Positions 1,967-64,000 of a DNA stretch of 64,000 nucleotides are shown one piece after another. Position numbers and translations under genes: made by a program. The stretch is from Shigella phage Ag3. Location: sequence record FJ373894. One strand, 5' to 3'. Each line of letters starts with the position of its first letter. Position 1 is the first letter of the stretch. The notes beneath the pieces are model-generated. The model was given only the letters and a program-made list of their open reading frames with translations, was not told where the DNA came from and made no database searches.

Positions 1967-1981
1967 ATATGGGGTATTTAG
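1967..1981 (-). promoter_or_regulatory. late-promoter-like motif CTAAATACCCCATAT
   Basis: Minus-strand motif about 20 nt upstream of helicase ATG. Confidence 0.35.
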
Positions 1982-5130: not shown

Positions 5131-5163
5131 GAAAATACCCCCATGGATGATGGGGGTATTTAG
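5131..5163 (-). promoter_or_regulatory. CTAAATACCCCC motif within an inverted repeat upstream of 4401..5129
   Basis: Arms AAATACCCCC / GGGGGTATTT around ATGGATGAT loop. Confidence 0.4.
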
Positions 5164-6184: not shown

Positions 6185-6466
6185 TTAGAACAAATGCTCG
6201 CCTTCCACATGGTATGCTAACACGCCGTCAGAACATTCAAAATACATGTTATCATATTCCCACAGAGCGGTGATTTCTTCACCCTGGCAAACTACCGAAA
6301 ACTTCGGCTGGCTGGCCTTAACTGGAAATTTTTCAGGGGAAGAGATTGGGGTGAATTTGGCATTTCTGACGGCCATACCAACAAATTGCTGCAATGTTAC
6401 TTTGTAACGAGAGTGGGTGATAGTACCAGCATTCAGAGCTTCGATCAATTGCGCTTTAGTTGTCAT
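6185..6466 (-). CDS. hypothetical protein (93 aa)
   Basis: ORF track. Confidence 0.45.
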   Translation of the reverse strand: MTTKAQLIEALNAGTITHSRYKVTLQQFVGMAVRNAKFTPISSPEKFPVKASQPKFSVVCQGEEITALWEYDNMYFECSDGVLAYHVEGEHLF

Positions 6467-6519
6467 GATATAGTTCCTTCATTTCAGAGTCAGTGTCGTA
6501 CTGCTTATGGAATGAAGTA

Positions 6520-6567
6520 TACGGGGTTTATTGAAGAAGTAAACCCCGTATTCAACTTTTTATTGAA
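6520..6567 (-). promoter_or_regulatory. 11-bp stem hairpin with TTCTTCAATAAA in loop/stem, plus second TTCAATAAA copy
   Basis: TACGGGGTTTA / TAAACCCCGTA stem; second half-site at 6559..6567. Confidence 0.4.
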
Positions 6568-7266: not shown

Positions 7267-7524
7267 TCAGTTCAAAATGGGATGTTCGTCGATATCGGAC
7301 TGCGTTGCAATCTCCCAGCGGACGATGTTCTCGGTTGTGATGAAATCACGGTTCAGGTGAGAGGCTGGCACATACACCATCGTGTCGACCATGAAGTAAC
7401 GCTGCTCGTTGTTCCAGGAGTCAACGTAAGCCTCAATGAGGCATACTTCGATCACTTCGCCTTTCGGCTTCTTCACAGTCTTTTTCAGGTACATGACGCA
7501 GCCCTCGGATAGTAGACGGGGCAA
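7267..7524 (-). CDS. hypothetical protein (85 aa)
   Basis: ORF track. Confidence 0.45.
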   Translation of the reverse strand: MPRLLSEGCVMYLKKTVKKPKGEVIEVCLIEAYVDSWNNEQRYFMVDTMVYVPASHLNRDFITTENIVRWEIATQSDIDEHPILN

Positions 7525-7554
7525 TAATACCTCTCGCCCCGTTATTGAAAACTG

Positions 7555-7797
7555 TTATCCTTCTTGTTCTTCCCAACCCCATTCATCTTCCCAAGACTGG
7601 CGAGGGGTCTTGCCCGCTTCGTAATCATCACGCCATGCGTCGGCGTCGGCGGCTGAACCACCCTGGCTTTTCGCGACTTTGCACAATACGTCGTGCCACT
7701 CACGGAAGGTGGAGTTGGCGACTGTGGTGTTTACAGAATCTTCTTTCAGGCTCATTGTGATTTCCTCGATTAATAGAGAGGGTAATAATACCCTCAT
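7555..7797 (-). CDS. hypothetical acidic protein (80 aa)
   Basis: ORF track. Confidence 0.4.
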   Translation of the reverse strand: MRVLLPSLLIEEITMSLKEDSVNTTVANSTFREWHDVLCKVAKSQGGSAADADAWRDDYEAGKTPRQSWEDEWGWEEQEG

Positions 7798-7814
7798 GCA
7801 ATCTTTGAAACTCT

Positions 7815-8147
7815 TTATCCAGCCAAAGTCATATTCTGGGAACCAACCCCATCTTCACATTCTGGATGACATGAAGTGCCCAGTTTTTCATGGATTACAT
7901 CCAGATGGGTAAAGATAGCGTCGATGATATCGTCTTGGTCAGACTGGACGTCAATCACCAAGCCGACCAGACCAGGCGCGGCCATTTCTTTATCTTCACC
8001 TTTCTGAGTGGTTGGGTAATCACCGTCGAGTTGGATACGGATGTTTCTGATATTGGTGAGGAGGTTGCACAAACGCTCTTTATGAGAACGAGCATTGACC
8101 AGAATTTGGGACACGGATTGTGTTGGTGATACGAGGTTACTTGACAT
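7815..8147 (-). CDS. hypothetical protein
   Basis: ORF track 7815..8189; ATG at 8147 preceded by AGGAG. Confidence 0.45.
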   Translation of the reverse strand: MSSNLVSPTQSVSQILVNARSHKERLCNLLTNIRNIRIQLDGDYPTTQKGEDKEMAAPGLVGLVIDVQSDQDDIIDAIFTHLDVIHEKLGTSCHPECEDGVGSQNMTLAG

Positions 8148-8239
8148 GATTTGTACTCCTGTTGTATGGTTGACTGTACAAGCATACAACAGGCAGGTGT
8201 ATTGAACAACGCGGGTATTAAATCGACACGATAAAGGAA

Positions 8240-8479
8240 TTAACTCGGAATGTGTCTAGCGATCTTCTTGTTGATGTCGTCTAGCAGAATACTCATCGTA
8301 TCTTTGTAGACCTCTACAGCCAATATCGATTTGGAATTCATGAATGAGCTGAAGATACCAGATTTCAAACGCCTCAACTCCTTTTCCGCTTCTTCAATCT
8401 GTCCCATGATGTATTTCTTCGCGCCCTGTAGCTCTATAGCACGGATGTCTATTTCTTTATCGTTCATGATGGCCTCCAA
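8240..8479 (-). CDS. hypothetical protein (79 aa)
   Basis: ORF track; GGAGG RBS; directly downstream of capsid-gene terminator. Confidence 0.45.
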   Translation of the reverse strand: MEAIMNDKEIDIRAIELQGAKKYIMGQIEEAEKELRRLKSGIFSSFMNSKSILAVEVYKDTMSILLDDINKKIARHIPS

Positions 8480-8513
8480 TTAGTTTGGCACATCATATAG
8501 CGAATCCCCATAA

Positions 8514-8541
8514 TGAAAAACCCCGCCGAAGCGGGGTTTTG
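8514..8541 (-). terminator. rho-independent terminator after capsid gene
   Basis: Minus-strand CCCCGCTTCGGCGGGG followed by TTTTT. Confidence 0.7.
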
Positions 8542-20663: not shown

Positions 20664-20674
20664 AAGGTATTTAG
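20664..20674 (-). promoter_or_regulatory. late-promoter-like CTAAATACCTT upstream of gp14-like gene
   Basis: About 20 nt upstream of ATG 20644. Confidence 0.4.
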
Positions 20675-27175: not shown

Positions 27176-27191
27176 GAGATATTTAGTATAC
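27176..27191 (-). promoter_or_regulatory. late-promoter-like ACTAAATATCTC upstream of giant structural gene
   Basis: About 35 nt upstream of ATG 27145. Confidence 0.3.
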
Positions 27192-31519: not shown

Positions 31520-31534
31520 ATATGGGGTATTTAG
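31520..31534 (-). promoter_or_regulatory. late-promoter-like CTAAATACCCCATAT upstream of tailspike B
   Basis: Identical 15-mer to 1967..1981. Confidence 0.4.
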
Positions 31535-36822: not shown

Positions 36823-36863
36823 AAATACCCCTAAATGTGTTCGTTTCATCTAGGGGTATTTAG
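36823..36863 (-). promoter_or_regulatory. CTAAATACCCCTAG motif plus inverted repeat upstream of tailspike D
   Basis: Arms AAATACCCCTA / TAGGGGTATTT; downstream arm supplies GGGG RBS. Confidence 0.4.
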
Positions 36864-40740: not shown

Positions 40741-40752
40741 GATATTTAGTGG
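40741..40752 (-). promoter_or_regulatory. late-promoter-like CACTAAATATC upstream of baseplate gene
   Basis: About 35 nt upstream of ATG 40702. Confidence 0.35.
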
Positions 40753-40985
40753 GATGGGATTGAAACTTCCTCGCGCGTTATTTTATTATACTATCACTCG
40801 CTTCACTGCGTTCCGCTCGGATAACACCGCCTTGACAGGCAGTCCCATTCCACAGCCATGGAGGCTGCTTTTCGTTGTTCGTTAACACTCACAACTCAAA
40901 GGGCACAGCGATACGATACAGTCTCTGAGTGGTGTAGAAAAGTAGTTTTTGCCTATTAATAAACCGCGCTCCTATTTGTTGGCCT

Positions 40986-41015
40986 TTAATTCAATAACAC
41001 CTTCACCAATATAAT
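40986..41015 (+). promoter_or_regulatory. sigma70-like promoter candidate
   Basis: TATAAT at 41010..41015; weak -35 TTAATT 18 nt upstream. Confidence 0.3.
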
Positions 41016-41051: not shown

Positions 41052-41624
41052 ATGCACATCAACACTGCTATCACGAAACACATCATTCCTTTGTTAGAGA
41101 AATATGAAGGGAAGAAATCAAAGGATATTTCGTTTGAAGATATATCCGCCGAAGTGAAGCGCTTGACACGTAAAGAAGTCAATTTCCGCCGTGTTCCCCC
41201 ATCTGCAGTAGATCGGGCAAAGTCAGATTTGAACACGGCTTCCACTTTCTCCTTTAATATCGATGCCACGGCGACATTGGTATCCGAATTAACGCAGTCG
41301 TCACAAGCCCGTCGCGATCGCTTCCGCCATTTATGTGTGGCCAACGACTATCCTAGCACCCGTGTCGGCATCAAGCTTGAAGCAATCCGCTCCGAGGTGT
41401 GCTTCACAGTGAACTATATCCTGGAGCCTGAAACCAGCAACATTTATTTCGCAGCCATCATCGGCTTCTATGGTACATCCATTAATGGTTGGGCTGAGCG
41501 CGTTGAATTAAAAGAGACTCTGAACAAACACAGCATCCCGTCCACCCATTATATGTCGCTCGCAGCCGCCCGTGAATATGTGTATCTGCTCGAGCGTGAT
41601 GTGAAGTTAAAAGTGGTAAAATAA
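41052..41624 (+). CDS. hypothetical protein (190 aa)
   Basis: AAGGAA RBS; TATAAT-like hexamer 41010..41015 upstream. Confidence 0.5.
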   Translation: MHINTAITKHIIPLLEKYEGKKSKDISFEDISAEVKRLTRKEVNFRRVPPSAVDRAKSDLNTASTFSFNIDATATLVSELTQSSQARRDRFRHLCVANDYPSTRVGIKLEAIRSEVCFTVNYILEPETSNIYFAAIIGFYGTSINGWAERVELKETLNKHSIPSTHYMSLAAAREYVYLLERDVKLKVVK

Positions 41625-41828: not shown

Positions 41829-43681
41829 CTCAAAGAGGAGAGGACTTTTCAAATTAGCTGGTCTGTGGTAAAGTATTAAACACGAGGGAAACAGCGCATT
41901 GAGTTAGGCATCTAAAGCCGACCTCACTAATCCCAGTCTCAGGGGCATGCGTGAATAGAGGCGTGACATCCACCTTGCATGGTGTTAGTGGACGCACTGA
42001 CCGTCGGAGAACGAAACTCCCTGTTGTAGCGTGATTAGCTCAGAAATAGAGAGCACCCCGTTGGCAAGTCGACACCAACACATAGGGGAGGTCGGGGGCG
42101 CTAATCTCCATCACGCCGACAACATTATGAGTCTTCATAGAGGGTTCATAATGTTGCGTCAAAGGGCAACAAAGGTTCCTGTTGGTTGAATTAACTTGAT
42201 TCATAGTTCCTGCTGATCTTCCCGGATTCGAAGGAGCACCAACAGGCGAGGCCGGATGCGTAAGTTCCGGCAAATCGATGGCGAGGTGGTGCATTGGTGA
42301 CACGGGGTAGCGCCCAGAAGTGTGGTTCGATTCCACACCCTCGCCAACAAATTAAAGGGTTTTCAATAATGGATTGCAGAGTATAGTTAACCCACTGAAC
42401 GAAAAGCTGTTTGGGCACTAGACAAACACTTCGATGTGAACCCAGGACATGGCGTCTTGTGCTCAAACAGGTTTTCGTTTTCGTTGTGCGTGACTTTGCG
42501 GGTTTTAAGAAACAGACCACAAAAATAAATGCAAACGATGATGTAGTTCTGATGGCGGCGTAATAGCCTATAAGTCAGTGAGGTCTTCCGACTCCTCATA
42601 ACAAAATTCGGCGCACTAAAAATAGGCGGGAGGGTGTGATTAATAAGCTCCCGCCGACATCTGAGAGGGCACTTGATCGAGGTCGGTATCCGCTATACGG
42701 GATGCTGTAAAATGAATCCACGGAGTGTCCTCCCAGATGTGTCTCACAGCGCATCAGTTTGCAGTTATGCAAGCTTCAATAAGTTAAAACGCGCCTCAGG
42801 CGTTATGGGATAAAGCCTTAAACAGTGGAATCCCCAGGGCTGGCAATCCCTGTTAAAGAAGTAGCCGTGTGGGGGTCAGCCCCCACAACGCAAAGTAGAG
42901 TCCTCTGGACGTTGAACTTAACCCAAGGGTTGATTCACATGGTGAACGTTCCCGGCGGCGATAGTACAAGATGAGGGGTCATTGAAGTTCAGAGAACTCT
43001 ACTTTGCGGCAGGTACTGCAAAACAGTGATCATCCTGACAAGCGTGATCACTCTTCGACAAAGCATCGCATCGTGGCCATCAACCACATCCTCGCTCTAG
43101 TGATGAGTGGTGTTATGTTCTGTCGGCCAGCCTCGTTTGGTCCGAGCGTAGAGGACAAGTGCTGAAGTGTGACGAAGACACTGAAGTGCGGGTTGTTTAG
43201 TGAATCCTGCTAAGCGCAAGGGTTGAGTGGCAAGAAACACCTGAGGATAAGTCAACGCCATTATTCGCCATGATAATGGCATCGGGAGGCACCCGACGCT
43301 AAACCGTTTGGCCTGACGAAACAGGCAAGTATCTGGGGTCGATCACCTTATCCTCACCCAGATGCGGGTTGTAGCATGGCTGCAACTCTGATGGCTCTCA
43401 ATATTCCATAATGTGTATCGGTTGTGGATGACAGGTAAATGAGCGGAAAGGCGAGAGCCATCAGAGTTGTGACCAACCCGATCTTGCAAGCCCGTATCCC
43501 TGTATGGTTAAGACTTGCAAGTGGAAAGCCCTGGAAAAATAAACGCCTGTGGTGAGGCTACGGTGCAAGCCAAAGACCCACAGAAGCGCGTTGCCGTGAG
43601 GCGCACAAACAGGCATGCATGAACTGATCATGCACAAACGGGATAAAGGGTTGACAGTCCTTGGTTGGTCACACAATAATT

Positions 43682-43956: not shown

Positions 43957-43988
43957 TAAACCAGTTGTTCAATAAACAACTGGTGAGT

Positions 43989-44189
43989 ATGATGAAAACG
44001 TTCGGTGATTTTATTGCTGAGTGGGATGGCCTCGCCACCGACAACAAAGAGATTGTCGAGTTTGTTGAAAAGCGAGGTGACAAGTGGGTTGTCCTTGACC
44101 ACACCAAGACGAAGGTTCTTGGTACACATGACACCAAAGCTGACGCTGATGCCCAATTAAGGGCGATTGAAGCGAACAAGCACGGATAA
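43989..44189 (+). CDS. small hypothetical protein (66 aa)
   Basis: ORF track 43965..44189; ATG at 43989 after GGTGAG; CTAAATAA motif upstream. Confidence 0.4.
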   Translation: MMKTFGDFIAEWDGLATDNKEIVEFVEKRGDKWVVLDHTKTKVLGTHDTKADADAQLRAIEANKHG

Positions 44190-45006: not shown

Positions 45007-45570
45007 AATTTGCGATCATCGCGGAAATCCCAGACGCGAGTGGAGGCCAGGGTGAAGACTGGCACATGGGCACTGACGGCAAAGGTGTTCTACCTCCTGG
45101 AATTGGGTGGCCTGAATGGTAGGGAAAGCAGCCAAGCGTTGTGGGTTCAACTCCCACTCACCCAGCCCCAGATGGAATGGGTCCATCATCGCAAATCATA
45201 TTTTGGGCGTGACTTCCTGAAGAGTTAGAAGGTGTGCATGCCGACTCTCTCGTAATCGGGTGTTTAGGAAGTTAAGAAAATCGCGGCGAGGATAGTGAAA
45301 TGCAAATAGCTTTCTCTACGCCGACGACTTCAGGTTCGATTCCTGACGCGCTCTCCCATAAGGCAGTACCAGTGCGAAGTGTGTAGTCTTTTCAACCCAT
45401 CCCCATCGATGTGGTATAGCCAGGTAAGGAAACCTGGCTTTCTTTTGCCCCCAGCTTAATGTCTTCTTATCACCCCAAATATGTAATCCTTCGTCGTAGT
45501 TTGTTCAATGATACAAAGGGGTTTAAAATTTAACCGTTAAAACCCCTATCATTGATTTGAGGATACACCA

Positions 45571-46224
45571 ATGCGTAATGTTTCTATCTGGGAAAATACT
45601 GAAGAATGGGAATTGCAGTCCACCCCAACTATAATCCGTATGTTCCAATACAAAGGCAACAAGCGTACTCTGAACGAGTTCTTGTCGCCGAATTATATCC
45701 ATCGCGGCTCCCAGCTCGCTCCGCGTGATCTCAACCAGCCTGGCGAATGCACACCCTTTGATCTCGGCGTGAAGGGGCAGGTTGTCCTTATGGGTTACTC
45801 TAGTATTACCGCCGCCGAAGAGGGCAACGGTCAACCGTTCAAAGTATTCCATACACGCGAACAGGCAATCCATTGGCTGGTCAAAAACTTCTTCTATTTC
45901 TATGGCGATGAAAGCGCAACCCGCCGTTGTCGTAAAGCCGTTTCTATGGACTTCGACGCAGAGAATCGGAAGTACCAGGCCATGGCTCGCGAGTATGAAA
46001 AGAATCTCGTCAAGCCTGTCACTGTGGTTGACAACAAATACGTCGCTGAAGCCCCGCGTCATACAGTGAATATCGTTCCGGCCTGTGAAACGAAAGCGCC
46101 GACACCGCCTACTCCTCCGGTCAGTCGTGTTCTGAATGATCAGGGCGCTCCGGTAAAACAAAAGGCCAAGAAATCGTCATTTGTGGATAACATGATGAAG
46201 TTCCTGCGGTTGTTCGGGAAATAA
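45571..46224 (+). CDS. hypothetical protein (217 aa)
   Basis: GAGGA RBS; hairpin upstream. Confidence 0.55.
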   Translation: MRNVSIWENTEEWELQSTPTIIRMFQYKGNKRTLNEFLSPNYIHRGSQLAPRDLNQPGECTPFDLGVKGQVVLMGYSSITAAEEGNGQPFKVFHTREQAIHWLVKNFFYFYGDESATRRCRKAVSMDFDAENRKYQAMAREYEKNLVKPVTVVDNKYVAEAPRHTVNIVPACETKAPTPPTPPVSRVLNDQGAPVKQKAKKSSFVDNMMKFLRLFGK

Positions 46225-48135: not shown

Positions 48136-48149
48136 CTAAATACCCCATA
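48136..48149 (+). promoter_or_regulatory. late-promoter-like CTAAATACCCCATA (copy 1)
   Basis: Followed by GGGGTATCTATG. Confidence 0.35.
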
Positions 48150-48235: not shown

Positions 48236-48250
48236 CTAAATACCCCATAT
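48236..48250 (+). promoter_or_regulatory. late-promoter-like CTAAATACCCCATAT (copy 2)
   Basis: 25 nt upstream of ATG 48275 with GAGGAA RBS. Confidence 0.4.
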
Positions 48251-49563: not shown

Positions 49564-50121
49564 TTAAAGACGGGAATCCAGCCAGGCGTTCTTTTCGTTC
49601 TGCCACTCCCAAGCGGCCTGACCGCCTGCCATGATCACTTCCAGGGAAGGAGTATTGTCGTCCTCGCCGCCGTGAAGGTCAGGGTCGAAGCCGTCGTCTT
49701 CAGGATCGTCTTCGCACTCATTCTGATAAGCGGAATATTCGATGTAATGGGCTTCGGCTTCACAATCCATGTCACCCAGAGCTTCCTCGAGGGACATTTT
49801 ACCTTCGGCGATCAGTTCGGCAGTCGCGTCGTCCAGGCCTGCGTCTTTCGCTTCAACGAACAGTTCGTGACGTTTCTGGAAGAAAAAGAACTGCATGGCT
49901 TCAATGCGTGAGTCGAAGAACTCTTGGCGAGGAGCAGTGATTTCACGACCATCAACCTTGCTTACCATCACGACGCGAGAACCGTACTCAACCAGGAAGC
50001 GGCCACCTTTCACTGGGTTGGAACCGTCAATTGTGCCCAGAGTGGTGATTGCGCGGCCTTCTTCAGTCCCGAACATTACGGTTTTGCCTGATTTGGACTG
50101 AGCGATAATCTCGATTGCCAT
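49564..50121 (-). CDS. hypothetical protein (about 185 aa)
   Basis: ORF track 49564..50301; internal ATG at 50121 with AAGGAAATACATC RBS. Confidence 0.5.
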   Translation of the reverse strand: MAIEIIAQSKSGKTVMFGTEEGRAITTLGTIDGSNPVKGGRFLVEYGSRVVMVSKVDGREITAPRQEFFDSRIEAMQFFFFQKRHELFVEAKDAGLDDATAELIAEGKMSLEEALGDMDCEAEAHYIEYSAYQNECEDDPEDDGFDPDLHGGEDDNTPSLEVIMAGGQAAWEWQNEKNAWLDSRL

Positions 50122-50182
50122 GATGTATTTCCTTCTCTTCAGATTGTTGTTTGTTCGTACTACAATTAGAAGTATACGCCAG

Positions 50183-50212
50183 TTATTGAAGAAGTAAACT
50201 TTATTCAATAAA
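50183..50212. promoter_or_regulatory. inverted repeat TTATTGAAGAAG...TTATTCAATAA
   Basis: Both orientations of the TTCAATAA half-site within 30 nt. Confidence 0.35.
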
Positions 50213-54123: not shown

Positions 54124-54176
54124 TTCAATAAACCAAAGGGGGATATAATTCCCCCTGTTAACCCTTTGACAAACAG

Positions 54177-54527
54177 GTGATTGAAATGAAACTCAATAAG
54201 ATTCTTCTGGTGTGCGCTCTGGCTTTCTCTACCACTGCATGCTCCACCCTTCTGGACGTTGCGTCTACTGTAGACCTTGACGCTCCGTCGTTCACCAATG
54301 AACAAGCCGTGTCTAAGATGGAAGATACCATCAAGGCTCATGCCGCTCTTGACAACACCACTCCTGGTCCATTACAGACCGTCTGCAACTATGACGATTC
54401 CATCCAGGAAGACGAAACCTACCACTGCACCACCTACGTGAAGCAGGCCTCTGTCGTACTGTATGCTGACTGCACCGAAGAGCAGTGCGTTGCCACAGGC
54501 TATGACAAAGTGGAGAAAGATCAATGA
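54177..54527 (+). CDS. putative lipoprotein (116 aa)
   Basis: Signal peptide MKLNKILLVCALAFSTTAC. Confidence 0.5.
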   Translation: MIEMKLNKILLVCALAFSTTACSTLLDVASTVDLDAPSFTNEQAVSKMEDTIKAHAALDNTTPGPLQTVCNYDDSIQEDETYHCTTYVKQASVVLYADCTEEQCVATGYDKVEKDQ

Positions 54528-59400: not shown

Positions 59401-59412
59401 TTCTTCAATAAA
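59401..59412 (+). promoter_or_regulatory. conserved TTCTTCAATAAA motif
   Basis: Also at 62321..62332; reverse orientation at 6527..6538 and 50183..50194. Confidence 0.35.
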
Positions 59413-59450
59413 GGGGAATGGGTTAATATTAGCCCGTTCCCCTTTCTTTT
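59413..59450 (+). terminator. rho-independent terminator
   Basis: GGGGAATGGG...CCCGTTCCCC 10-bp stem then TTTCTTTTT. Confidence 0.65.
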
Positions 59451-59466
59451 TGCAAGGAAATACATC

Positions 59467-59679
59467 ATGGCAATGAAACGAATTGAAGATATGTCCCTAC
59501 TGGATATGGAAGCGACTTTTGGTGATTACTTTGAGTCCACTCCGAAACAAAAAGACCCTCTGGTTGGCCGTCTGGTGGTTTCTGAAGCGTTCGCACAGAA
59601 AGTTCGCGAAGGTCTTCCGCCTGAATATGGGCGCTTCCGTAATGGCGCTTCCGTTATCGTCATGGGTGAATCTAAATGA
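59467..59679 (+). CDS. hypothetical protein (70 aa)
   Basis: AAGGAAATACATC RBS. Confidence 0.45.
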   Translation: MAMKRIEDMSLLDMEATFGDYFESTPKQKDPLVGRLVVSEAFAQKVREGLPPEYGRFRNGASVIVMGESK

Positions 59680-60062
59680 CACAGTCCGAATACAAACAGT
59701 ACCTGTACGATCTGTTCATGAAAGAAACGGATGGTACACTCCACCCTAAGAAAGCCACTATCGTCGTGCTGCATTCACAAGGCGCCCTGTCATTCTCCTA
59801 TCTTTTCAAAGAATTGGATCTGATGGGCATTGAATATAAAAAGCACATTACGCCAGAACGCACTCTGAAGCGCGCAATCGCTCACTGCGTCCATTCAGTG
59901 GCAACTGTTATGTTCCGCCATCACATCACATTTGATGAAGCGCTGGACCCACAGTACCATGAAGAGCGTTGGGATCTGTTGTTAAAGAACGGTGCCAAGC
60001 CTGAGCACAAAGATCAACTCCTTGGGATGACCAAGGCGCAACTCGTGGATGGTGTGTTATGA
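59676..60062 (+). CDS. hypothetical protein (128 aa)
   Basis: ORF track; start overlaps upstream stop. Confidence 0.5.
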   Translation: MTQSEYKQYLYDLFMKETDGTLHPKKATIVVLHSQGALSFSYLFKELDLMGIEYKKHITPERTLKRAIAHCVHSVATVMFRHHITFDEALDPQYHEERWDLLLKNGAKPEHKDQLLGMTKAQLVDGVL

Positions 60063-61171
60063 TCTATCTCCTGTTTGGTGTGCCATTGATACTGGCCATC
60101 CTGTTTGTGGTCTACCACCGCAAGACCCATGAGCCGAAAGAGACTCTGATTGCGACGGCGATTGTGGTGGTGCTGTCCTGTCTGATTCAGGTCGGGGCTT
60201 ATGCTGCGTTCTCCCTCGGCAGTTCAGGGGACGTTGAGATCCTGAACGGATACGTCACTGGCAAGGAGCGCAATAAGGTGAGCTGCGAGCACTCGTATCA
60301 GTGCAACTGCTACTACACCACATCATGCTCCGGTTCCGGTAGCAGCAAGTCCTGTACCCGTACTCGCCATTGCAGCACCTGCTATGAGCATTCGTATGAC
60401 GTGGACTGGGATGTGCTGACGACTGTTGGTAATCTGACGATTGACCGCATTGACCGCCGTGGTCTTGGCCAGCCGCCGCGCTGGGCGCAGGTTCAGATTG
60501 GTGAGCCAGCCGCCCGTGAGCACTCCTACATGAACTATGTGCTGGGCAACAAGGACTCTCTGTTCTCCCGCTCAGACCAGCAGTTTGCTGAGCGCTTCAA
60601 AGACAAGATTCCCAAGTACCCTGAGGTCTATGACTACTATCGTGTCACTCGTGTCCTGAACGTGTCCGGCCTGGCTTTGCCAACCACATACTGGAACGAC
60701 TACCTGAATGATGTTCTGAAGAAGCTGGGCGCGGCCAAGCAGGTGAACATCGTCTGGGTTGTGACATCCGGTCAGCCAGTTGAATATTTCCAGGGCTTGG
60801 TCTATGCATGGGATGGCGGTAAAAAGAACGACGTTATCGTCGTGACCGACATCAGCAAAGACCTGAAGATCAATTGGGGTAAGAGCACTTCGTTCGCTGA
60901 TGGTATGCACAACCGTGAACTTCACTCCCGCAACGGTATGGACCTGACTGGGCATGATATGGGCATCGGCGTCATGACAGACGTTGTCGCCAACATCACT
61001 AAAGGCTACAACCGCGTTGAGATGAAGGAAATGGAGTACCTGAAGTGGCGGGAACTCAAGACCTGGGAAGTTGTGGTTGTTGTTCTGCTGGGCTGCTTGC
61101 CATTCACCGCAATTTTCATATTGCAGCGAATGGAGTACAATGGTGGCCGTCGTTATCCGTTTAATTTTTAA
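60059..61171 (+). CDS. Cys-rich membrane protein (370 aa)
   Basis: N- and C-terminal hydrophobic segments; CEHSYQCNCYYTTSCSGSGSSKSCTRTRHCSTC cluster. Confidence 0.55.
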   Translation: MIYLLFGVPLILAILFVVYHRKTHEPKETLIATAIVVVLSCLIQVGAYAAFSLGSSGDVEILNGYVTGKERNKVSCEHSYQCNCYYTTSCSGSGSSKSCTRTRHCSTCYEHSYDVDWDVLTTVGNLTIDRIDRRGLGQPPRWAQVQIGEPAAREHSYMNYVLGNKDSLFSRSDQQFAERFKDKIPKYPEVYDYYRVTRVLNVSGLALPTTYWNDYLNDVLKKLGAAKQVNIVWVVTSGQPVEYFQGLVYAWDGGKKNDVIVVTDISKDLKINWGKSTSFADGMHNRELHSRNGMDLTGHDMGIGVMTDVVANITKGYNRVEMKEMEYLKWRELKTWEVVVVVLLGCLPFTAIFILQRMEYNGGRRYPFNF

Positions 61172-61189
61172 TCAAAAGAGGAAGTAAGA

Positions 61190-61759
61190 ATGTCTCAATC
61201 TAAGAGTATTGCAACAGGTTGGATCGTTGGTTTGGCTTTGCTGGGCATGGTGATTGTCTGCATCGGTACAGTCATCAGCTACTTCAACGACTTCAACCGC
61301 ACCGAACAGCAGGTCAAGAAGTTCAACAAAGACTCCGAGAACTACCTGAGCAACTACACGCTCAAAGTTCAGGAGACGGCGCAGATTCCTGACATGTACA
61401 AAGACGGCCTGAAGGAAGTGATCAAAGGTACGTTCGAAGGGCGTTATGGCGCTGATGGTTCCAAGGCGGTCATGCAGTGGATCCAGGAGCAGAACATTCA
61501 GTTCGATTCCAGCCTGTACAAAGAGATCCAGGTGGTGATCAGTTCTGGGCGTGATGAATTCCGCATCAGCCAGACCAAGAAGCTGGATATCTGCGCAATG
61601 TACGAAACCAAGCTGGCTCAGTTCCCTGGTTCGTTGATCGCTGGCATGTTTGGCTACCCGCGCATCGACCTTGACAAGACCTGCCAGGTGGTGAGCGATA
61701 CCCGTACCCAGGCCGCGTTCGACGCTGGGGTTCAGAAACCGATCAACTTCAAAGGCTGA
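61190..61759 (+). CDS. LemA-family protein
   Basis: N-terminal TM helix; C-terminal FPGSLIAGMFGY...PINF resembles LemA FPNNIVAGMFGF...KVNF. Confidence 0.55.
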   Translation: MSQSKSIATGWIVGLALLGMVIVCIGTVISYFNDFNRTEQQVKKFNKDSENYLSNYTLKVQETAQIPDMYKDGLKEVIKGTFEGRYGADGSKAVMQWIQEQNIQFDSSLYKEIQVVISSGRDEFRISQTKKLDICAMYETKLAQFPGSLIAGMFGYPRIDLDKTCQVVSDTRTQAAFDAGVQKPINFKG

Positions 61760-61891
61760 TATCATGTCAGAACGTGATAAAGAAATCGTCAAGCACGCCA
61801 ACACGCTGGCAAAGGAGCTTGGCATTGAAATTGAAGTCAAGAACATGGATGACGTTCTGACTTTCTTAAACAAATGTTTGGGGTACGAATA

Positions 61892-62317
61892 ATGGCTCTG
61901 AAACTTACTGAATCACTGACGCTGGACCAGCAGCAGGCGCTGTTAGACGAAGTGGTGATCTCTGCTGTCAAACAGGGGATCATCCGTGACGACACGTTAC
62001 TCACCCGCCCTGAGATGATTCATCATCTGGTGGTGTGCCTTGGCGAGGCCAACAATCCTCGCAAAAAGATCCGCATGTTCAAAGGCGGCGTGATCTATCC
62101 AAACGGGCGTTTCGGTTTCATTGAACCAGTGTTGAAGACTGATGGCACCCCAAACAATAATGGTGGGCATATCAAGACCTCAATCCCAGTGACACCGTAC
62201 ACCGAAGGGGTTGATGCACTTTCTTGGTTCGAGACAATCAACACCATTTATGTGATGGCACCGGACGGTAAACCAGTTCAGGATCTGCGAGGCGGCAAAG
62301 TAGAATCTGAAGACTAA
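61892..62317 (+). CDS. hypothetical protein (141 aa)
   Basis: ORF track 61874..62317; ATG at 61892 overlaps stop of a 42-aa upstream ORF. Confidence 0.5.
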   Translation: MALKLTESLTLDQQQALLDEVVISAVKQGIIRDDTLLTRPEMIHHLVVCLGEANNPRKKIRMFKGGVIYPNGRFGFIEPVLKTDGTPNNNGGHIKTSIPVTPYTEGVDALSWFETINTIYVMAPDGKPVQDLRGGKVESED

Positions 62318-62320
62318 TCG

Positions 62321-62332
62321 TTCTTCAATAAA
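62321..62332 (+). promoter_or_regulatory. conserved TTCTTCAATAAA motif
   Basis: Immediately after stop of 61892..62317, before terminator. Confidence 0.35.
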
Positions 62333-62333
62333 A

Positions 62334-62367
62334 GGGGATAGGGTATTATTGCTCTATCCCCTTTTTC
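62334..62367 (+). terminator. rho-independent terminator
   Basis: GGGGATAG...CTATCCCC stem then TTTTTC. Confidence 0.7.
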
Positions 62368-62742
62368 ATGGACAAGAACATGACAGACAAGCCAAGAAAG
62401 ATTGCGATTGTTGGAGCCGGACTGGGCTCTCGGTTGATCAAAGTTCTACTGGAAGAGAAGCTACCAGGAGTTGAGGTTGTGCACATCACTCCCGACGATA
62501 TTCCGAAGCGTCGGAGTGAGCCTGGTGAGCGTATGATCATCTGTGACGAGCTACAACAGATGCCGGACACCAAGGCTCTGCTTGTCAAGCTGAAACAACG
62601 AGACACGGAGATGTCTGCTGAATGTGATATGCGGGAGTTCTATGCCGACCGCCGCTATCAAGAACCCACACGCCTGCGTGGAGCCGCTGCTCACAAACGT
62701 CAGGCCACTAAAATGAAGAACAAACGCCGGAGCAAACGCTGA
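62368..62742 (+). CDS. hypothetical basic protein (124 aa)
   Basis: ORF track; follows terminator. Confidence 0.5.
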   Translation: MDKNMTDKPRKIAIVGAGLGSRLIKVLLEEKLPGVEVVHITPDDIPKRRSEPGERMIICDELQQMPDTKALLVKLKQRDTEMSAECDMREFYADRRYQEPTRLRGAAAHKRQATKMKNKRRSKR

Positions 62743-63894: not shown

Positions 63895-63902
63895 TCTGAA
63901 CA

Positions 63903-63926
63903 AAGCCCTCAGCCGAGGGCTTTTTC
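63903..63926 (+). terminator. rho-independent terminator
   Basis: AGCCCTC-AGCC-GAGGGCT followed by TTTTT. Confidence 0.7.
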
Positions 63927-64000
63927 AATTGAAGCCCACCACAGTATCATACCCACTCAATCAATATGTTTCCCTTTGACATTGATAGGATTTCTATACT

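What the first reader, a model, noticed from the sequence alone, without database searches (positions are those of the whole stretch)
59401..62332. Conserved TTCTTCAATAAA / TTCAATAA half-sites near terminators in early-gene intergenic regions
The 12-mer occurs twice on the plus strand (59401, 62321) immediately before terminators and twice in reverse orientation (6527, 50183), with shorter TTCAATAA copies at 40990, 43959, 50204, 54124 and 6559. Several form inverted repeats such as TTATTGAA-N14-TTCAATAA at 50183..50212, which looks like an operator for a dimeric DNA-binding protein or a middle-promoter activator box. Spacing to the nearest start codon is inconsistent, so the function is unresolved.
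Basis: seen in the sequence. Interest (0 to 1): 0.45.

Follow-up and report, generated by a model that had tools for sequence, protein, structure and literature searches.

The report
Conserved promoter box in ViI-like phages
The repeated TTCAATAA is the upstream box of a promoter class (TTCAATAA-12 bp-TATAAT, usually fused to a terminator hairpin) conserved across enterobacterial ViI-like phages, a family whose early and middle promoters had not been defined.

Summary
The repeat is real and far above chance: 12 TTCAATAA vs about 2 expected in a 50%-GC window.

It is not a set of operator half-sites. In 7 of 12 copies the box lies exactly 12 bp upstream of a TAnnnT −10 hexamer. It points with the downstream gene, and a start codon usually follows 18–41 nt after the −10.

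The composite TCAATAA-N12-TAnnnT occurs 7 times here and 10 times in a complete relative, against about 0 expected. At orthologous sites in four other lineages the core is 100% conserved, the −10 is 94% conserved and the spacer only 75%.

Most copies are fused to stem-loops or terminators, often with the −10 in the loop. This is the composite promoter–terminator (PeSL/PmSL) design known from T4-type phages.

These sites have no usable −35 and no TGn. Their geometry matches T4 MotA-box middle promoters, but the box sequence differs and no MotA or AsiA homologue exists. A second, T4-early-like class (TTTACT-N16-TATACT) carries extra boxes in its spacer and upstream.

The promoter reading is strong. 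Which protein reads the box is inferred, not shown.

The parts
59404..59429 (+). Class A promoter: box TTCAATAA (59404-59411), N12, -10 TAATAT (59424-59429). It drives the gene at 59467-59679.
   Evidence: The box and -10 are conserved in Kuttervirus, Limestonevirus and Taipeivirus.
59410..59451 (+). Intrinsic terminator for the upstream gene: a 16-bp stem (59410-59445) followed by CTTTTT. The -10 of the promoter lies at the loop apex, and the inferred start lies in the 3' arm.
   Evidence: Listed as T_orf248 in the AG3 paper's Table S2.
62324..62349 (+). Class A promoter: box TTCAATAA (62324-62331), N12, -10 TATTAT (62344-62349). It drives the gene that starts at 62368.
   Evidence: Conserved in four other lineages.
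62330..62368 (+). Terminator hairpin (16-bp stem, 62330-62365) with a T-run. The -10 lies in the loop.
54124..54149 (+). Class A promoter that begins one base after the DNA polymerase stop codon: TTCAATAA, N12, TATAAT. The -10 is the loop of the hairpin GGGGGA/TCCCCC. It drives the gene at 54186-54527.
   Evidence: Conserved as far as Erwinia phage Bue1. Listed as P_orf237, 'TTGAtt..TATAAT', in AG3 Table S2.
40990..41015 (+). Class A promoter with no hairpin: TTCAATAA, N12, TATAAT. It drives the gene at 41052-41624, in the divergent region opposite the baseplate gene.
   Evidence: The box and -10 are kept in nearly all relatives compared, while the 12-nt spacer is scrambled.
42362..42387 (+). 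Class A promoter: TTCAATAA, N12, TATAGT. Relatives read (T)TGTCAATAA, or ATCAATAA in FEC14. It lies upstream of a tmRNA-like RNA region.
43968..43993 (+). Box in the loop of a conserved hairpin (ACCAGTTG / CAACTGGT), with TATGAT at N12. This is an ambiguous site, because TATGAT overlaps the ATG of a conserved small ORF.
   Evidence: and the P46FS4 annotation.
45504..45529 (+). Class A promoter with a degenerate box: TTCAATGA, N12, TAAAAT. The -10 lies inside the hairpin AAGGGGTTT/AAACCCCT. It drives the gene at 45571-46224.
   Evidence: Conserved in Kuttervirus and Limestonevirus, absent in Taipeivirus.
63902..63950 (+). Upstream terminator (63902-63923) whose T-tail runs into the box TTCAATTG (63924-63931), then N13, then TATCAT (63945-63950). 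It faces rIIA, which starts beyond the window end.
7524..7549 (-). Class A promoter: TTCAATAA, N12, TATTAT. The -10 lies in the loop of CGGGGC/GCCCCG. It drives the gene at 7267-7494.
7785..7809 (-). Class A promoter with a degenerate box: TTCAAAGA, N11, TATTAT, with a hairpin over the -10. It drives the gene at 7555-7755.
8181..8206 (-). Class A promoter: TTCAATAC, N12, TATGCT. It drives the gene at 7815-8147.
8492..8540 (-). Upstream terminator (CCCCGC-ttcg-GCGGGG plus T-run) that runs into the box TTCATTAT (8510-8517), then N12, then TATGAT (8492-8497). It drives the gene at 8240-8467.
   Evidence: Listed as T_orf185 in AG3 Table S2.
6516..6567 (-). Class B (T4-early-like) promoter: TTTACT, N16, TATACT (6516-6543). 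A box lies inside the spacer (6528-6535) and a second, direct box lies upstream (6560-6567). A hairpin encloses the -35 and the box. It drives the gene at 6185-6466.
   Evidence: The cassette is an island of homology between the window and P46FS4.
50171..50211 (-). Class B promoter: TTTACT, N16, TATACT (50171-50198). A box lies in the spacer (50183-50190) and an inverted box lies upstream (50204-50211). It drives the gene at 49564-50121.
42775..42782 (+). Orphan exact box with no -10 at N10-13, inside the conserved non-coding (tmRNA-like) stretch. Unexplained.

Best explanation
TTCAATAA (core TCAATAA, at about -31 to -25) is the upstream recognition box of a phage promoter class with the consensus (TT)nTTCAATAA-N12(+/-1)-TAtaaT. 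This class is shared by the enterobacterial Ackermannviridae.

Shown:
- The box has promoter anatomy: fixed spacing to a -10 hexamer, the same orientation as the downstream gene, and a short leader before the SD and ATG.
- It shows a box/-10 phylogenetic footprint across genera.
- It is physically fused to stem-loops or terminators, often with the -10 in the loop. Each cassette would therefore end the upstream transcript and start a new one. This is the composite promoter-terminator (PeSL/PmSL) design of T4-type phages.

Inferred:
- The -10 is read by host sigma70 RNA polymerase.
- These sites have no usable -35 and no TGn, and the conserved block extends past the -35 hexamer. The box is therefore most likely read by a phage-encoded factor bound at about -30 that substitutes for the -35 contact. 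That is the logic of T4 MotA, without MotA or AsiA. I put this sub-claim at about 0.45.
- The extra boxes in the spacer and at -44 to -49 of the T4-early-like TTTACT-N16/17-TATACT promoters could let the same factor damp early promoters. This is speculative.
For: Enrichment:
- The 8-mer occurs 12 times vs 2.05 expected.
- It is the second most over-represented 8-mer in the complete relative.

Fixed spacing:
- 7 of 12 exact boxes have TAnnnT at exactly N12.
- TCAATAA-N12-TAnnnT occurs 7 times in the window and 10 times in P46FS4, against 0.0 in shuffles.
- It occurs 5-6 times in each of four other lineages, against 0.05-0.25. No other spacing shows a peak.

Orientation and leader:
- The boxes point with the downstream genes.
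- The distance from the -10 to the start codon is 24-41 nt for nine class A sites.

Non-circular footprint (7 window-chosen sites, up to 4 other lineages):
- Core -31 to -25: 182 of 182 identical.
- -10 hexamer: 93.6%.
- Spacer: 75%.
- Upstream flank: 68%.
- At 40990 the spacer is scrambled while the box and -10 are kept in nearly all relatives.

Taxonomic range: the motif extends to Erwinia phage Bue1, with 9 boxes vs 1.7 expected, and the cassette after the polymerase gene is retained there.

No canonical -35:
- The best match to TTGACA averages 3.1 of 6.
- Only 2 of 15 sites reach 4 of 6, the same 13% as random -10-like hexamers.
- There is no TGn.
- A generic sigma70 scan misses 59404 and 62324.

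Geometry and hairpins:
- The geometry equals the MotA box, '12 bp +/- 1 from the -10' (PMC2988021).
- Hairpins overlap most sites, matching PeSL stem-loops 'between the -35 and -10 or overlapping the -10' (PMC2839356) and the PmSL type (PMC4122927).

Other promoter classes coexist: class B 9 vs 0.1, late-type CTAAATAYC 11 vs 0.6, and canonical TTGACA-type 3 vs 3.5.

Shuffling: the cassette at 6535 is an island of homology between unrelated flanking genes.
Against: - No transcription start sites or expression data exist for this family in the searchable literature, so promoter activity is inferred.
- T at -35 (12 of 15) and at -34 (8 of 15) is partly conserved. Relatives of the 42362 site read TTGTCA-N16-TATAGT. 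Direct sigma70 region 4 contact is therefore not excluded.
- The AG3 authors listed the 54124 site as an ordinary sigma70 promoter.
- The box also occurs in other registers near class B promoters. It occurs once with no -10 (42775), and at 43968 the '-10' overlaps a start codon. About 5 of 27 boxes in P46FS4 lie inside annotated CDS.
- No box-binding protein was identified. There is no MotA or AsiA homologue, and the products of class B promoters have unknown function.
Confidence: 0.82

Rival explanations
1. The sites are the same promoters, but host sigma70 holoenzyme reads them with no phage factor. TTnTTCAATAA would be a lineage-specific -35/spacer flavour of strong early promoters, just as T4 early promoters carry extra conserved positions.
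For: - T is partly conserved at -35 and -34.
- A hexamer of the form nnTTCA at a 16-bp spacing shares the C and A of TTGACA.
- Relatives of the 42362 site have TTGTCA-N16-TATAGT.
- The sigma70 scanner calls 54120, 63922, 8519 and 7551.
- AG3 Table S2 lists two of these sites as sigma70-like early promoters.
- PeSL consensus sequences differ between T4-type lineages.
- The downstream genes are mostly small ORFs of the kind usually expressed early.
Against: - The invariant block (-31 to -25) lies mostly outside the -35 hexamer, while -35 to -33 is less conserved (85%).
- -35 matches are no better than at random -10-like hexamers, and there is no TGn.
- A separate, clearly sigma70/T4-early-like class (TTTACT-N16/17) exists in the same genome, so two different '-35' solutions would have to coexist.
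Confidence: 0.35
2. The boxes are operator half-sites for a dimeric phage (or host) repressor or regulator, and are not core promoter elements.
For: - The inverted pair TTATTGAA-N13-TTCAATAA brackets the -35 of class B promoters at two loci of the complete genome.
- 6 of 8 intergenic class B promoters carry boxes (10 boxes vs 0.17 expected), in either orientation.
- The phage family encodes an HU/IHF/TF1-family protein and a small protein annotated as a transcriptional regulator.
Against: - Most boxes are single and oriented, and they co-vary with a -10 at fixed spacing rather than with a partner box.
- The two dyad loci are paralogous cassettes, so the shared spacing may be inherited.
- The dyad spacing is 13 bp in Agtrevirus and Kuttervirus but 12 bp in Taipeivirus.
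- Upstream boxes also occur as direct repeats at 22 or 32 bp.
Confidence: 0.12
3. The extra or odd boxes (near class B promoters, and the orphan at 42775) are scars of recombination between promoter cassettes, like the 'half PeSLs' of T4-type phages, and have no function of their own.
For: - Half or degraded PeSLs with misplaced -35 copies are described in T4-type phages.
- The cassette at 6535 is an island of homology flanked by unrelated genes.
- Indels abut the cassettes at 45504 and 59404.
Against: - The spacer box and the upstream box at the 50190 promoter are conserved across three genera.
- Box positions near class B promoters cluster in two registers rather than being scattered.
- The overall link between indel breakpoints and cassettes is only suggestive.
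Confidence: 0.2
4. The motif acts at the RNA level, as part of the terminator or a processing signal, or is a chance product of stop-codon and A/T-rich context.
For: - Many copies abut hairpins.
- The box lies in a hairpin loop at 43968 and at the 6535 promoter.
Against: - The sites at 40990 and 42362 have no hairpin, yet keep the box and the -10.
- The element conserved with the box is a TAnnnT hexamer at a fixed distance.
- The window is 50% G+C and the enrichment is about 6-fold.
- The box is not part of the upstream stop codon.
Confidence: 0.03

Closest known systems
PeSL / PmSL cassettes of T4-type phages (promoter-early or promoter-middle stem-loops; Arbiol 2010 PMC2839356, Comeau 2014 PMC4122927)
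   Same: - Short intergenic cassettes, repeated through the genome, that combine a promoter with a stem-loop or terminator.
- The stem-loop lies between the upstream element and the -10, or overlaps the -10.
- They are densest between small ORFs of unknown function.
- A cassette can be an island of homology between swapped genes.
- Class B here (TTTACT-N16/17-TATACT) matches the T4/PST PeSL promoter TTTACW-N17-TAYWAT.
- Class A parallels the PmSL type (box at about -30, a -10, and a stem-loop).
   Different: - The phage family is different: Ackermannviridae, not Straboviridae.
- The class A box is TTCAATAA rather than the Mot box TGCTT.
- Promoter and terminator activity and mini-circle formation have not been tested here.
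- The association with indels is only suggestive.
T4 MotA/AsiA-dependent middle promoters (sigma appropriation; Hinton 2010 PMC2988021)
   Same: - A phage-specific box centred near -30, placed 12 +/- 1 bp from a sigma70-type -10 (TAtaaT).
- The box takes the place of a -35 element.
- This class coexists with a T4-early-like class and a gp55-type late class.
   Different: - The box sequence is unrelated (TTCAATAA vs (a/t)(a/t)(a/t)TGCTTtA).
- No MotA or AsiA homologue was detected (also stated for CBA120 in PMC3184105).
- None of these promoters has TGn, whereas about half of T4 middle promoters do.
- Dependence on an activator has not been shown.
SPO1 TF1 (a phage HU-family protein that binds sites at early promoters on hmU DNA)
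   Same: The relatives encode a full-length HU/IHF/TF1-family protein. Boxes overlap the core elements of the early-type promoters. That ViI-like phages carry hypermodified thymidines is my own recollection, not tested here.
   Different: This is purely an analogy. There is no evidence that the HU-like protein binds TTCAATAA, the gene is not in the window, and the box does not match the IHF consensus as I recall it.

Membership tests
Canonical sigma70 -35/-10 (or extended -10) promoter | A -10 hexamer of the form TAnnnT close to TATAAT | tested here: met
   All class A sites have TAnnnT, mostly 5 of 6 matches. T-12, A-11 and T-7 are 100% conserved across lineages.
Canonical sigma70 -35/-10 (or extended -10) promoter | A -35 hexamer resembling TTGACA, 16-18 bp upstream of the -10 | tested here: not met
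   The mean best match is 3.1 of 6. Only 2 of 15 sites reach 4 of 6, the same 13% as random -10-like hexamers. The generic scan misses 59404 and 62324.
Canonical sigma70 -35/-10 (or extended -10) promoter | A TGn extended -10 that compensates for a weak -35 | tested here: not met
   There is no T at -15 or G at -14 signal. The column 'TG_before_second' reads 'no' for every hit.
T4 MotA/AsiA middle promoter | A phage box centred near -30, 12 +/- 1 bp from a sigma70 -10, replacing the -35 | tested here: met
   The spacing peaks at 12 in six genomes. The definition comes from PMC2988021.
T4 MotA/AsiA middle promoter | The box sequence (a/t)(a/t)(a/t)TGCTTtA | tested here: not met
   The box is TTCAATAA, with core TCAATAA invariant.
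T4 MotA/AsiA middle promoter | motA and asiA genes in the phage genome | tested here: not met
   phmmer of T4 MotA and AsiA against all six-frame ORFs of the complete relative, the window and four other loci gave a best E-value of 0.16. This tests sequence similarity only; relatives detectable only by fold were not tested.
T4 MotA/AsiA middle promoter | Transcription that depends on phage early proteins (delayed, chloramphenicol-sensitive) | not testable with these tools
   No transcriptome or start-site data for Ackermannviridae were found.
PeSL/PmSL composite promoter-terminator cassette | An intergenic promoter fused to a stable stem-loop that lies between the upstream element and the -10, overlaps the -10, or sits just upstream | tested here: met
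   The -10 lies in or next to the loop at 7549, 7809, 45504, 54124, 59404 and 62324. An upstream terminator is fused to the box at 8517 and 63924.
PeSL/PmSL composite promoter-terminator cassette | Many copies per genome, concentrated between small ORFs of unknown function | tested here: met
   About 15 clean class A sites and 8 class B sites occur in the complete relative. In the window, five consecutive small genes at 6.2-8.5 kb each have their own cassette.
PeSL/PmSL composite promoter-terminator cassette | Association with gene insertions, deletions or replacements between close relatives | tested here: inconclusive
   There are clear cases at 6535, 59404 and 45504. Many breakpoints are homing-endonuclease or intron events far from any cassette, and whole-gene indels end in intergenic DNA in any case.
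PeSL/PmSL composite promoter-terminator cassette | Demonstrated promoter and terminator activity, and mini-circle formation | not testable with these tools
   These need experiments.
T4-type early promoter (TTTACW-N17-TAYWAT) | The hexamers TTTACW and TAYWAT with a 16-17 bp spacer, upstream of genes | tested here: met
   Window sites 6516-6543(-) and 50171-50198(-). In P46FS4 there are 9 against 0.1 expected. The consensus is from PMC4122927.
Operator for a dimeric DNA-binding protein | Paired inverted half-sites at a fixed spacing at most sites | tested here: not met
   Most boxes are single. Dyads occur only at two paralogous class B loci, and their spacing is 13 or 12 bp in different genera.

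The most novel reading that the evidence does not exclude
Enterobacterial Ackermannviridae would use a MotA/AsiA-independent counterpart of sigma appropriation. An unidentified phage early protein would bind TTCAATAA at about -30 and replace the sigma70 -35 contact at some 15 or more promoters per genome. The same protein would bind the boxes inside the spacer and at -44 to -49 of the T4-early-like promoters to shut them off. One box and one factor would then drive the early-to-middle switch.
Probability: 0.3. Interest if true: 0.7.

Novelty: new variant of a known kind. Interest (0 to 1): 0.48.

Why it matters
ViI-like phages (Ackermannviridae) are widely used for biocontrol, detection and therapy, yet their transcription programme is essentially undescribed.

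- The 2011 CBA120 paper states that early promoters could not be identified by informatics and that no MotA, AsiA or other middle-mode mechanism is evident (PMC3184105).
- A 2024 review of the family does not mention promoters or transcription at all.

A family-wide consensus (TTCAATAA-N12-TATAAT), together with a T4-early-like class and a CTAAATAYC late-type class, gives a concrete three-class promoter map. It makes the open question directly testable: mutate the box, map starts with and without chloramphenicol, and pull down the box-binding protein.

It also extends the composite promoter-terminator cassette design, and perhaps cassette-mediated gene shuffling, outside the T4 family proper. 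Finally, it offers compact promoter/terminator parts for engineering these phages.

Tried and rejected
- **My own greedy ORF caller.** It produced spurious ORFs in the non-coding and tRNA stretch, so I used the RefSeq annotation of P46FS4 instead.
- **Generic sigma70 and terminator scan.** The number of hits equals the shuffle expectation, so it has no discriminating power here.
- **Degenerate box at 40764(-).** Rejected as a box site. Across genera the conserved element there is CTAAATAT, a late-type promoter for the gp6 baseplate gene.
- **MotA/AsiA homology.** Nothing found.
- **Homologue of the sigma factor annotated in Vibrio phage K452.** Nothing found.
- **Pfam, PHROGs and PDB searches of the proteins expressed from class B promoters.** All are of unknown function, so no candidate binder emerged from them.
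- **PHROG 639 'transcriptional regulator'.** It is found across the family but has no informative relatives.
- **Indel breakpoints against cassettes.** Suggestive only.
- **Host-factor consensus sequences recalled from memory (IHF, H-NS, Fur, ArgR).** No convincing match to the box. This was not tested with any tool.
- **Literature searches for the motif or for start-site data.** Nothing relevant beyond AG3 Table S2.

Full report
**Identity of the window.** The window is from a ViI-like phage (Ackermannviridae, genus Agtrevirus).
- It is 94-98% identical at the DNA level to Salmonella phages P46FS4 and SKML-39 and to Shigella phages MK-13 and ChubbyThor.
- Its DNA polymerase is 99.9% identical to that of SKML-39.
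- It is 50% G+C throughout.
- It corresponds to the reverse complement of P46FS4 from about 130.7 kb, through the record origin, to about 36 kb. It therefore holds structural genes (mostly on the minus strand, 1-40.9 kb), a tRNA/non-coding stretch, the DNA polymerase gene, and a run of small genes that leads to rIIA.

**The observation.**
- TTCAATAA occurs 12 times against 2.05 expected; no shuffle exceeded 6.
- The 12-mer TTCTTCAATAAA occurs 3 times, not 4. The copy at 50183 is 11 of 12.
- The dyad is N13, not N14.
- In the complete genome of P46FS4 the 8-mer is the second most over-represented of all 8-mers (27 vs 6.8).
- By my reading of the annotation tables, about 22 of those 27 copies lie outside annotated CDS.

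Aligning the contexts shows that most boxes are followed, exactly 12 nt later, by a -10-type hexamer.
- 7 of the 12 exact boxes have TAnnnT at N12, and no other spacing is favoured.
- The composite TCAATAA-N12-TAnnnT occurs 7 times in the window and 10 times in P46FS4, against 0.0 in dinucleotide shuffles.
- It occurs 5-6 times in roughly 45-kb segments of Kuttervirus FEC14, Limestonevirus XF4 and the Taipeiviruses May and IME250, against 0.05-0.25 expected. The peak is always at 12.
- Allowing one mismatch gives 26 in P46FS4 against 3.75 expected.
- Degenerate members in the window are 7809- (TTCAAAGA, N11), 8206- (TTCAATAC), 8517- (TTCATTAT), 45504+ (TTCAATGA) and 63924+ (TTCAATTG, N13).
- Apart from the inverted copy at 50204, the boxes point in the direction of the adjacent gene.
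- The -10 is followed by an SD and start codon after 24-41 nt at nine class A sites. At 62324 the start at 62368 follows after about 18 nt.
- This is promoter anatomy. I call these sites class A.

**Conservation.** I chose seven class A sites in the window only and aligned the orthologous intergenic regions of four other lineages.
- The core TCAATAA (-31 to -25, taking the -10 as -12 to -7) is identical in 182 of 182 comparisons.
- The -10 hexamer is 93.6% identical, with T-12, A-11 and T-7 at 100%.
- The spacer is 75%, the upstream flank 68%, and -35 to -33 is 85%.
- At 40990 the box and the -10 are kept in nearly all relatives while the 12-nt spacer is scrambled.
- At 42362 most relatives read TTGTCAATAA, which defines the core as TCAATAA.
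- The degenerate 'box' at 40764- is a false positive. What is conserved there is CTAAATAT, a late-type promoter for the gp6 baseplate gene.
- The motif extends to Erwinia phage Bue1 (polymerase 66% identical). It has 9 boxes vs 1.7 expected, 7 of them followed by a -10-like hexamer at N10-12, and the cassette after the polymerase gene is retained.
- The motif is not seen in Vibrio phage K452 (polymerase 49% identical), which is annotated with its own sigma factor.

**Relation to the terminators.** The 'terminators' and the boxes are parts of one cassette.
- At 7549, 7809, 45504, 54124, 59404 and 62324 the 5' arm of a hairpin begins right after the box. The -10 is in or next to the loop, and the inferred start lies in or just beyond the 3' arm.
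- At 59404 and 62324 a T-run follows, giving textbook intrinsic terminators (the first is T_orf248 of the AG3 paper). A transcript arriving from upstream would form the whole hairpin and stop. A transcript started at the embedded promoter lacks the 5' arm and would read on. This is inference from the geometry.
- At 8517 and 63924 an upstream terminator's T-tail runs straight into the box.
- This is the architecture described for the PeSL cassettes of T4-type phages. [quoted passage not shown] The 'PmSL' variant has a Mot box, a -10 and a stem-loop (PMC4122927).
- As with PeSLs, the cassettes are dense between small ORFs of unknown function. Five consecutive genes at 6.2-8.5 kb each have one.
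- The cassette at 6535 is an island of homology between the window and P46FS4, with unrelated genes on both sides.
- A broader test of indel breakpoints against cassettes was only suggestive.

**A second class.** The copies at 6528- and 50183- belong to a different promoter type, TTTACT-N16-TATACT.
- This matches the T4/PST early consensus TTTACW-N17-TAYWAT.
- In P46FS4 this class B occurs 9 times against 0.1 expected. Canonical TTGACA-N16-18-TAnnnT is not enriched (3 vs 3.5). A late-type motif, CTAAATA[CT]C, occurs 11 times against 0.6, mostly just upstream of structural genes. In the window the late-type motif occurs 9 times against 0.44.
- Six of the eight intergenic class B promoters carry TTCAATAA boxes: 10 boxes against 0.17 expected.
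- The boxes fall in two registers: inside the spacer (-26 to -28), and upstream (-44 to -49, once at -59), in either orientation.
The two dyad loci are paralogous, and the spacing is 12 rather than 13 in Taipeivirus. A rigid dimer operator is therefore unlikely.

**How the box is read.** Class A sites have no usable -35.
- The best match to TTGACA at 16-18 bp averages 3.1 of 6. Only 2 of 15 sites reach 4 of 6, the same fraction as for random -10-like hexamers.
- There is no TGn, and a standard sigma70 scan misses 59404 and 62324.
- The invariant block (-31 to -25) extends beyond the -35 hexamer.
- The geometry equals that of T4 middle promoters, where the MotA box lies '12 bp +/- 1 from the sigma70-dependent -10 element' and replaces the -35 (PMC2988021).
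- The box sequence is unrelated to the MotA box, however, and neither MotA nor AsiA has a detectable homologue. That agrees with the CBA120 paper.
- My preferred reading is that host sigma70 polymerase uses the -10 while a phage-encoded factor bound at about -30 supplies the upstream contact. This is inference.
- The main rival is direct recognition by sigma70 of an idiosyncratic TTnTTC / nnTTCA element. It is supported by partial T conservation at -35 and -34 and by the TTGTCA-N16 variant at 42362.
- Candidate binders are weak. They are an HU/IHF/TF1-family protein and a small family-wide protein annotated as a 'transcriptional regulator'. Both are encoded outside the window. The products of class B promoters are of unknown function.

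**Prior knowledge.**
- The AG3 paper found only a handful of sigma70-like promoters. Its Table S2 happens to include the orthologue of the 54124 site, read as TTGAtt-N18-TATAAT. It also lists a class B site and several terminators with -10-like loops, without noting the shared box.
- The CBA120 paper states that early promoters could not be identified and that no middle-mode mechanism is evident.
- The LIMEstone paper assigned a few promoters by similarity to T4.
- A 2024 review of the family does not mention promoters or transcription.
- I found no start-site or time-course data.

**Verdict.** The finding is real and functional-looking: a family-wide promoter box embedded in PeSL-like promoter-terminator cassettes. 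I rate it a new variant of a known kind, of moderate interest. It would be of higher interest if the box proves to be read by a new phage factor.

**Caveats.**
- 43968 may not be a simple promoter, because its '-10' overlaps a conserved ORF's start and the box lies in a hairpin loop.
- 42775 is an orphan box.
- All activity is inferred from sequence.

Noticed in passing
window 42393-42700 (tag frame 42531-42566, + strand); the orthologous places in L004, L005, L007, L008 and L010: A tmRNA-like RNA gene appears to lie directly downstream of the 42362 promoter. Rfam gives sub-threshold hits to tmRNA_permuted (29.8 bits against a gathering score of 47, E = 0.002) and to alpha_tmRNA.

A 10-codon SsrA-like tag frame is conserved, with lineage-specific changes:
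- window: ANDDVVLMAA**
- P46FS4: ANDNAYLAVA*
- FEC14, May and IME250: ANDNTFLAVA*
- Erwinia Bue1: ANDNEFKVAA*

The E. coli tag, from memory, is ANDENYALAA. The frame is absent in Limestonevirus XF4. ARAGORN calls no tmRNA in any of these phages, and no mention was found in the literature searched.
   Followed up: partly
window 1973-1981(-), 5155-5163(-), 20666-20674(-), 27178-27186(-), 31526-31534(-), 36855-36863(-), 40741-40749(-), 48136-48144(+), 48236-48244(+): CTAAATA[CT]C occurs 9 times against 0.44 expected in the window, and 11 times against 0.6 in P46FS4. Most copies lie 20-40 nt upstream of structural-gene starts, and the motif is often extended to CTAAATACCCC. It is probably the gp55-type late promoter of this family, which the CBA120 paper said had not been identified.
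   Followed up: partly
window 42283-42346 (+): A tRNA-like element (acceptor stem GGCGAGG/CCTCGCC, T-arm GTGTGGTTCGATTCCACAC) that ARAGORN does not call. It is present in the window and in Kuttervirus FEC14 but absent from P46FS4 and Taipeivirus May. The indel ends about 15 nt upstream of the 42362 box.
   Followed up: partly
window 6185-6466(-), compared with L001:30134-30785: There is a gene replacement behind the class B cassette. The window encodes one 93-aa protein (PHROG 10263), whereas the 95%-identical P46FS4 has two unrelated ORFs there. The upstream gene also differs, and only the cassette itself is shared.
   Followed up: yes
window 50121, 59467 and 6466 (start-codon regions); P46FS4 30134 and 144652: Several unrelated small genes behind these cassettes share a near-identical leader, SD and start context (…GAAGGAAATACATCATGGCA…). 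At the 50190 promoter the whole 5' leader, more than 100 nt including the promoter, is almost invariant across three genera. This suggests a conserved translational or leader element, or simply that the cassette extends to the start codon.
   Followed up: no
L011:17643-19439 (Vibrio phage K452): This distant Ackermannviridae-like Vibrio phage is annotated with a 598-aa 'RNA polymerase sigma factor' next to its DNA polymerase gene. It lacks the TTCAATAA composite. The sigma factor has no homologue in the enterobacterial relative.
   Followed up: partly
L002:7272-7550 (P46FS4 ORF68; outside the window): The relatives encode a full-length HU/IHF-family protein (Pfam Bac_DNA_binding, E = 1.8e-29). 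Its PDB matches include IHF, HU and SPO1 transcription factor 1. It is a possible architectural or regulatory protein for these promoters.
   Followed up: partly
window 43195-43304 (+): A weak sub-threshold Rfam match to the enterobacterial sRNA STnc100 (33.7 bits against a gathering score of 47), inside the 2-kb stretch at 41.6-43.7 kb where relatives annotate few or no genes. That stretch is largely conserved among relatives.
   Followed up: no
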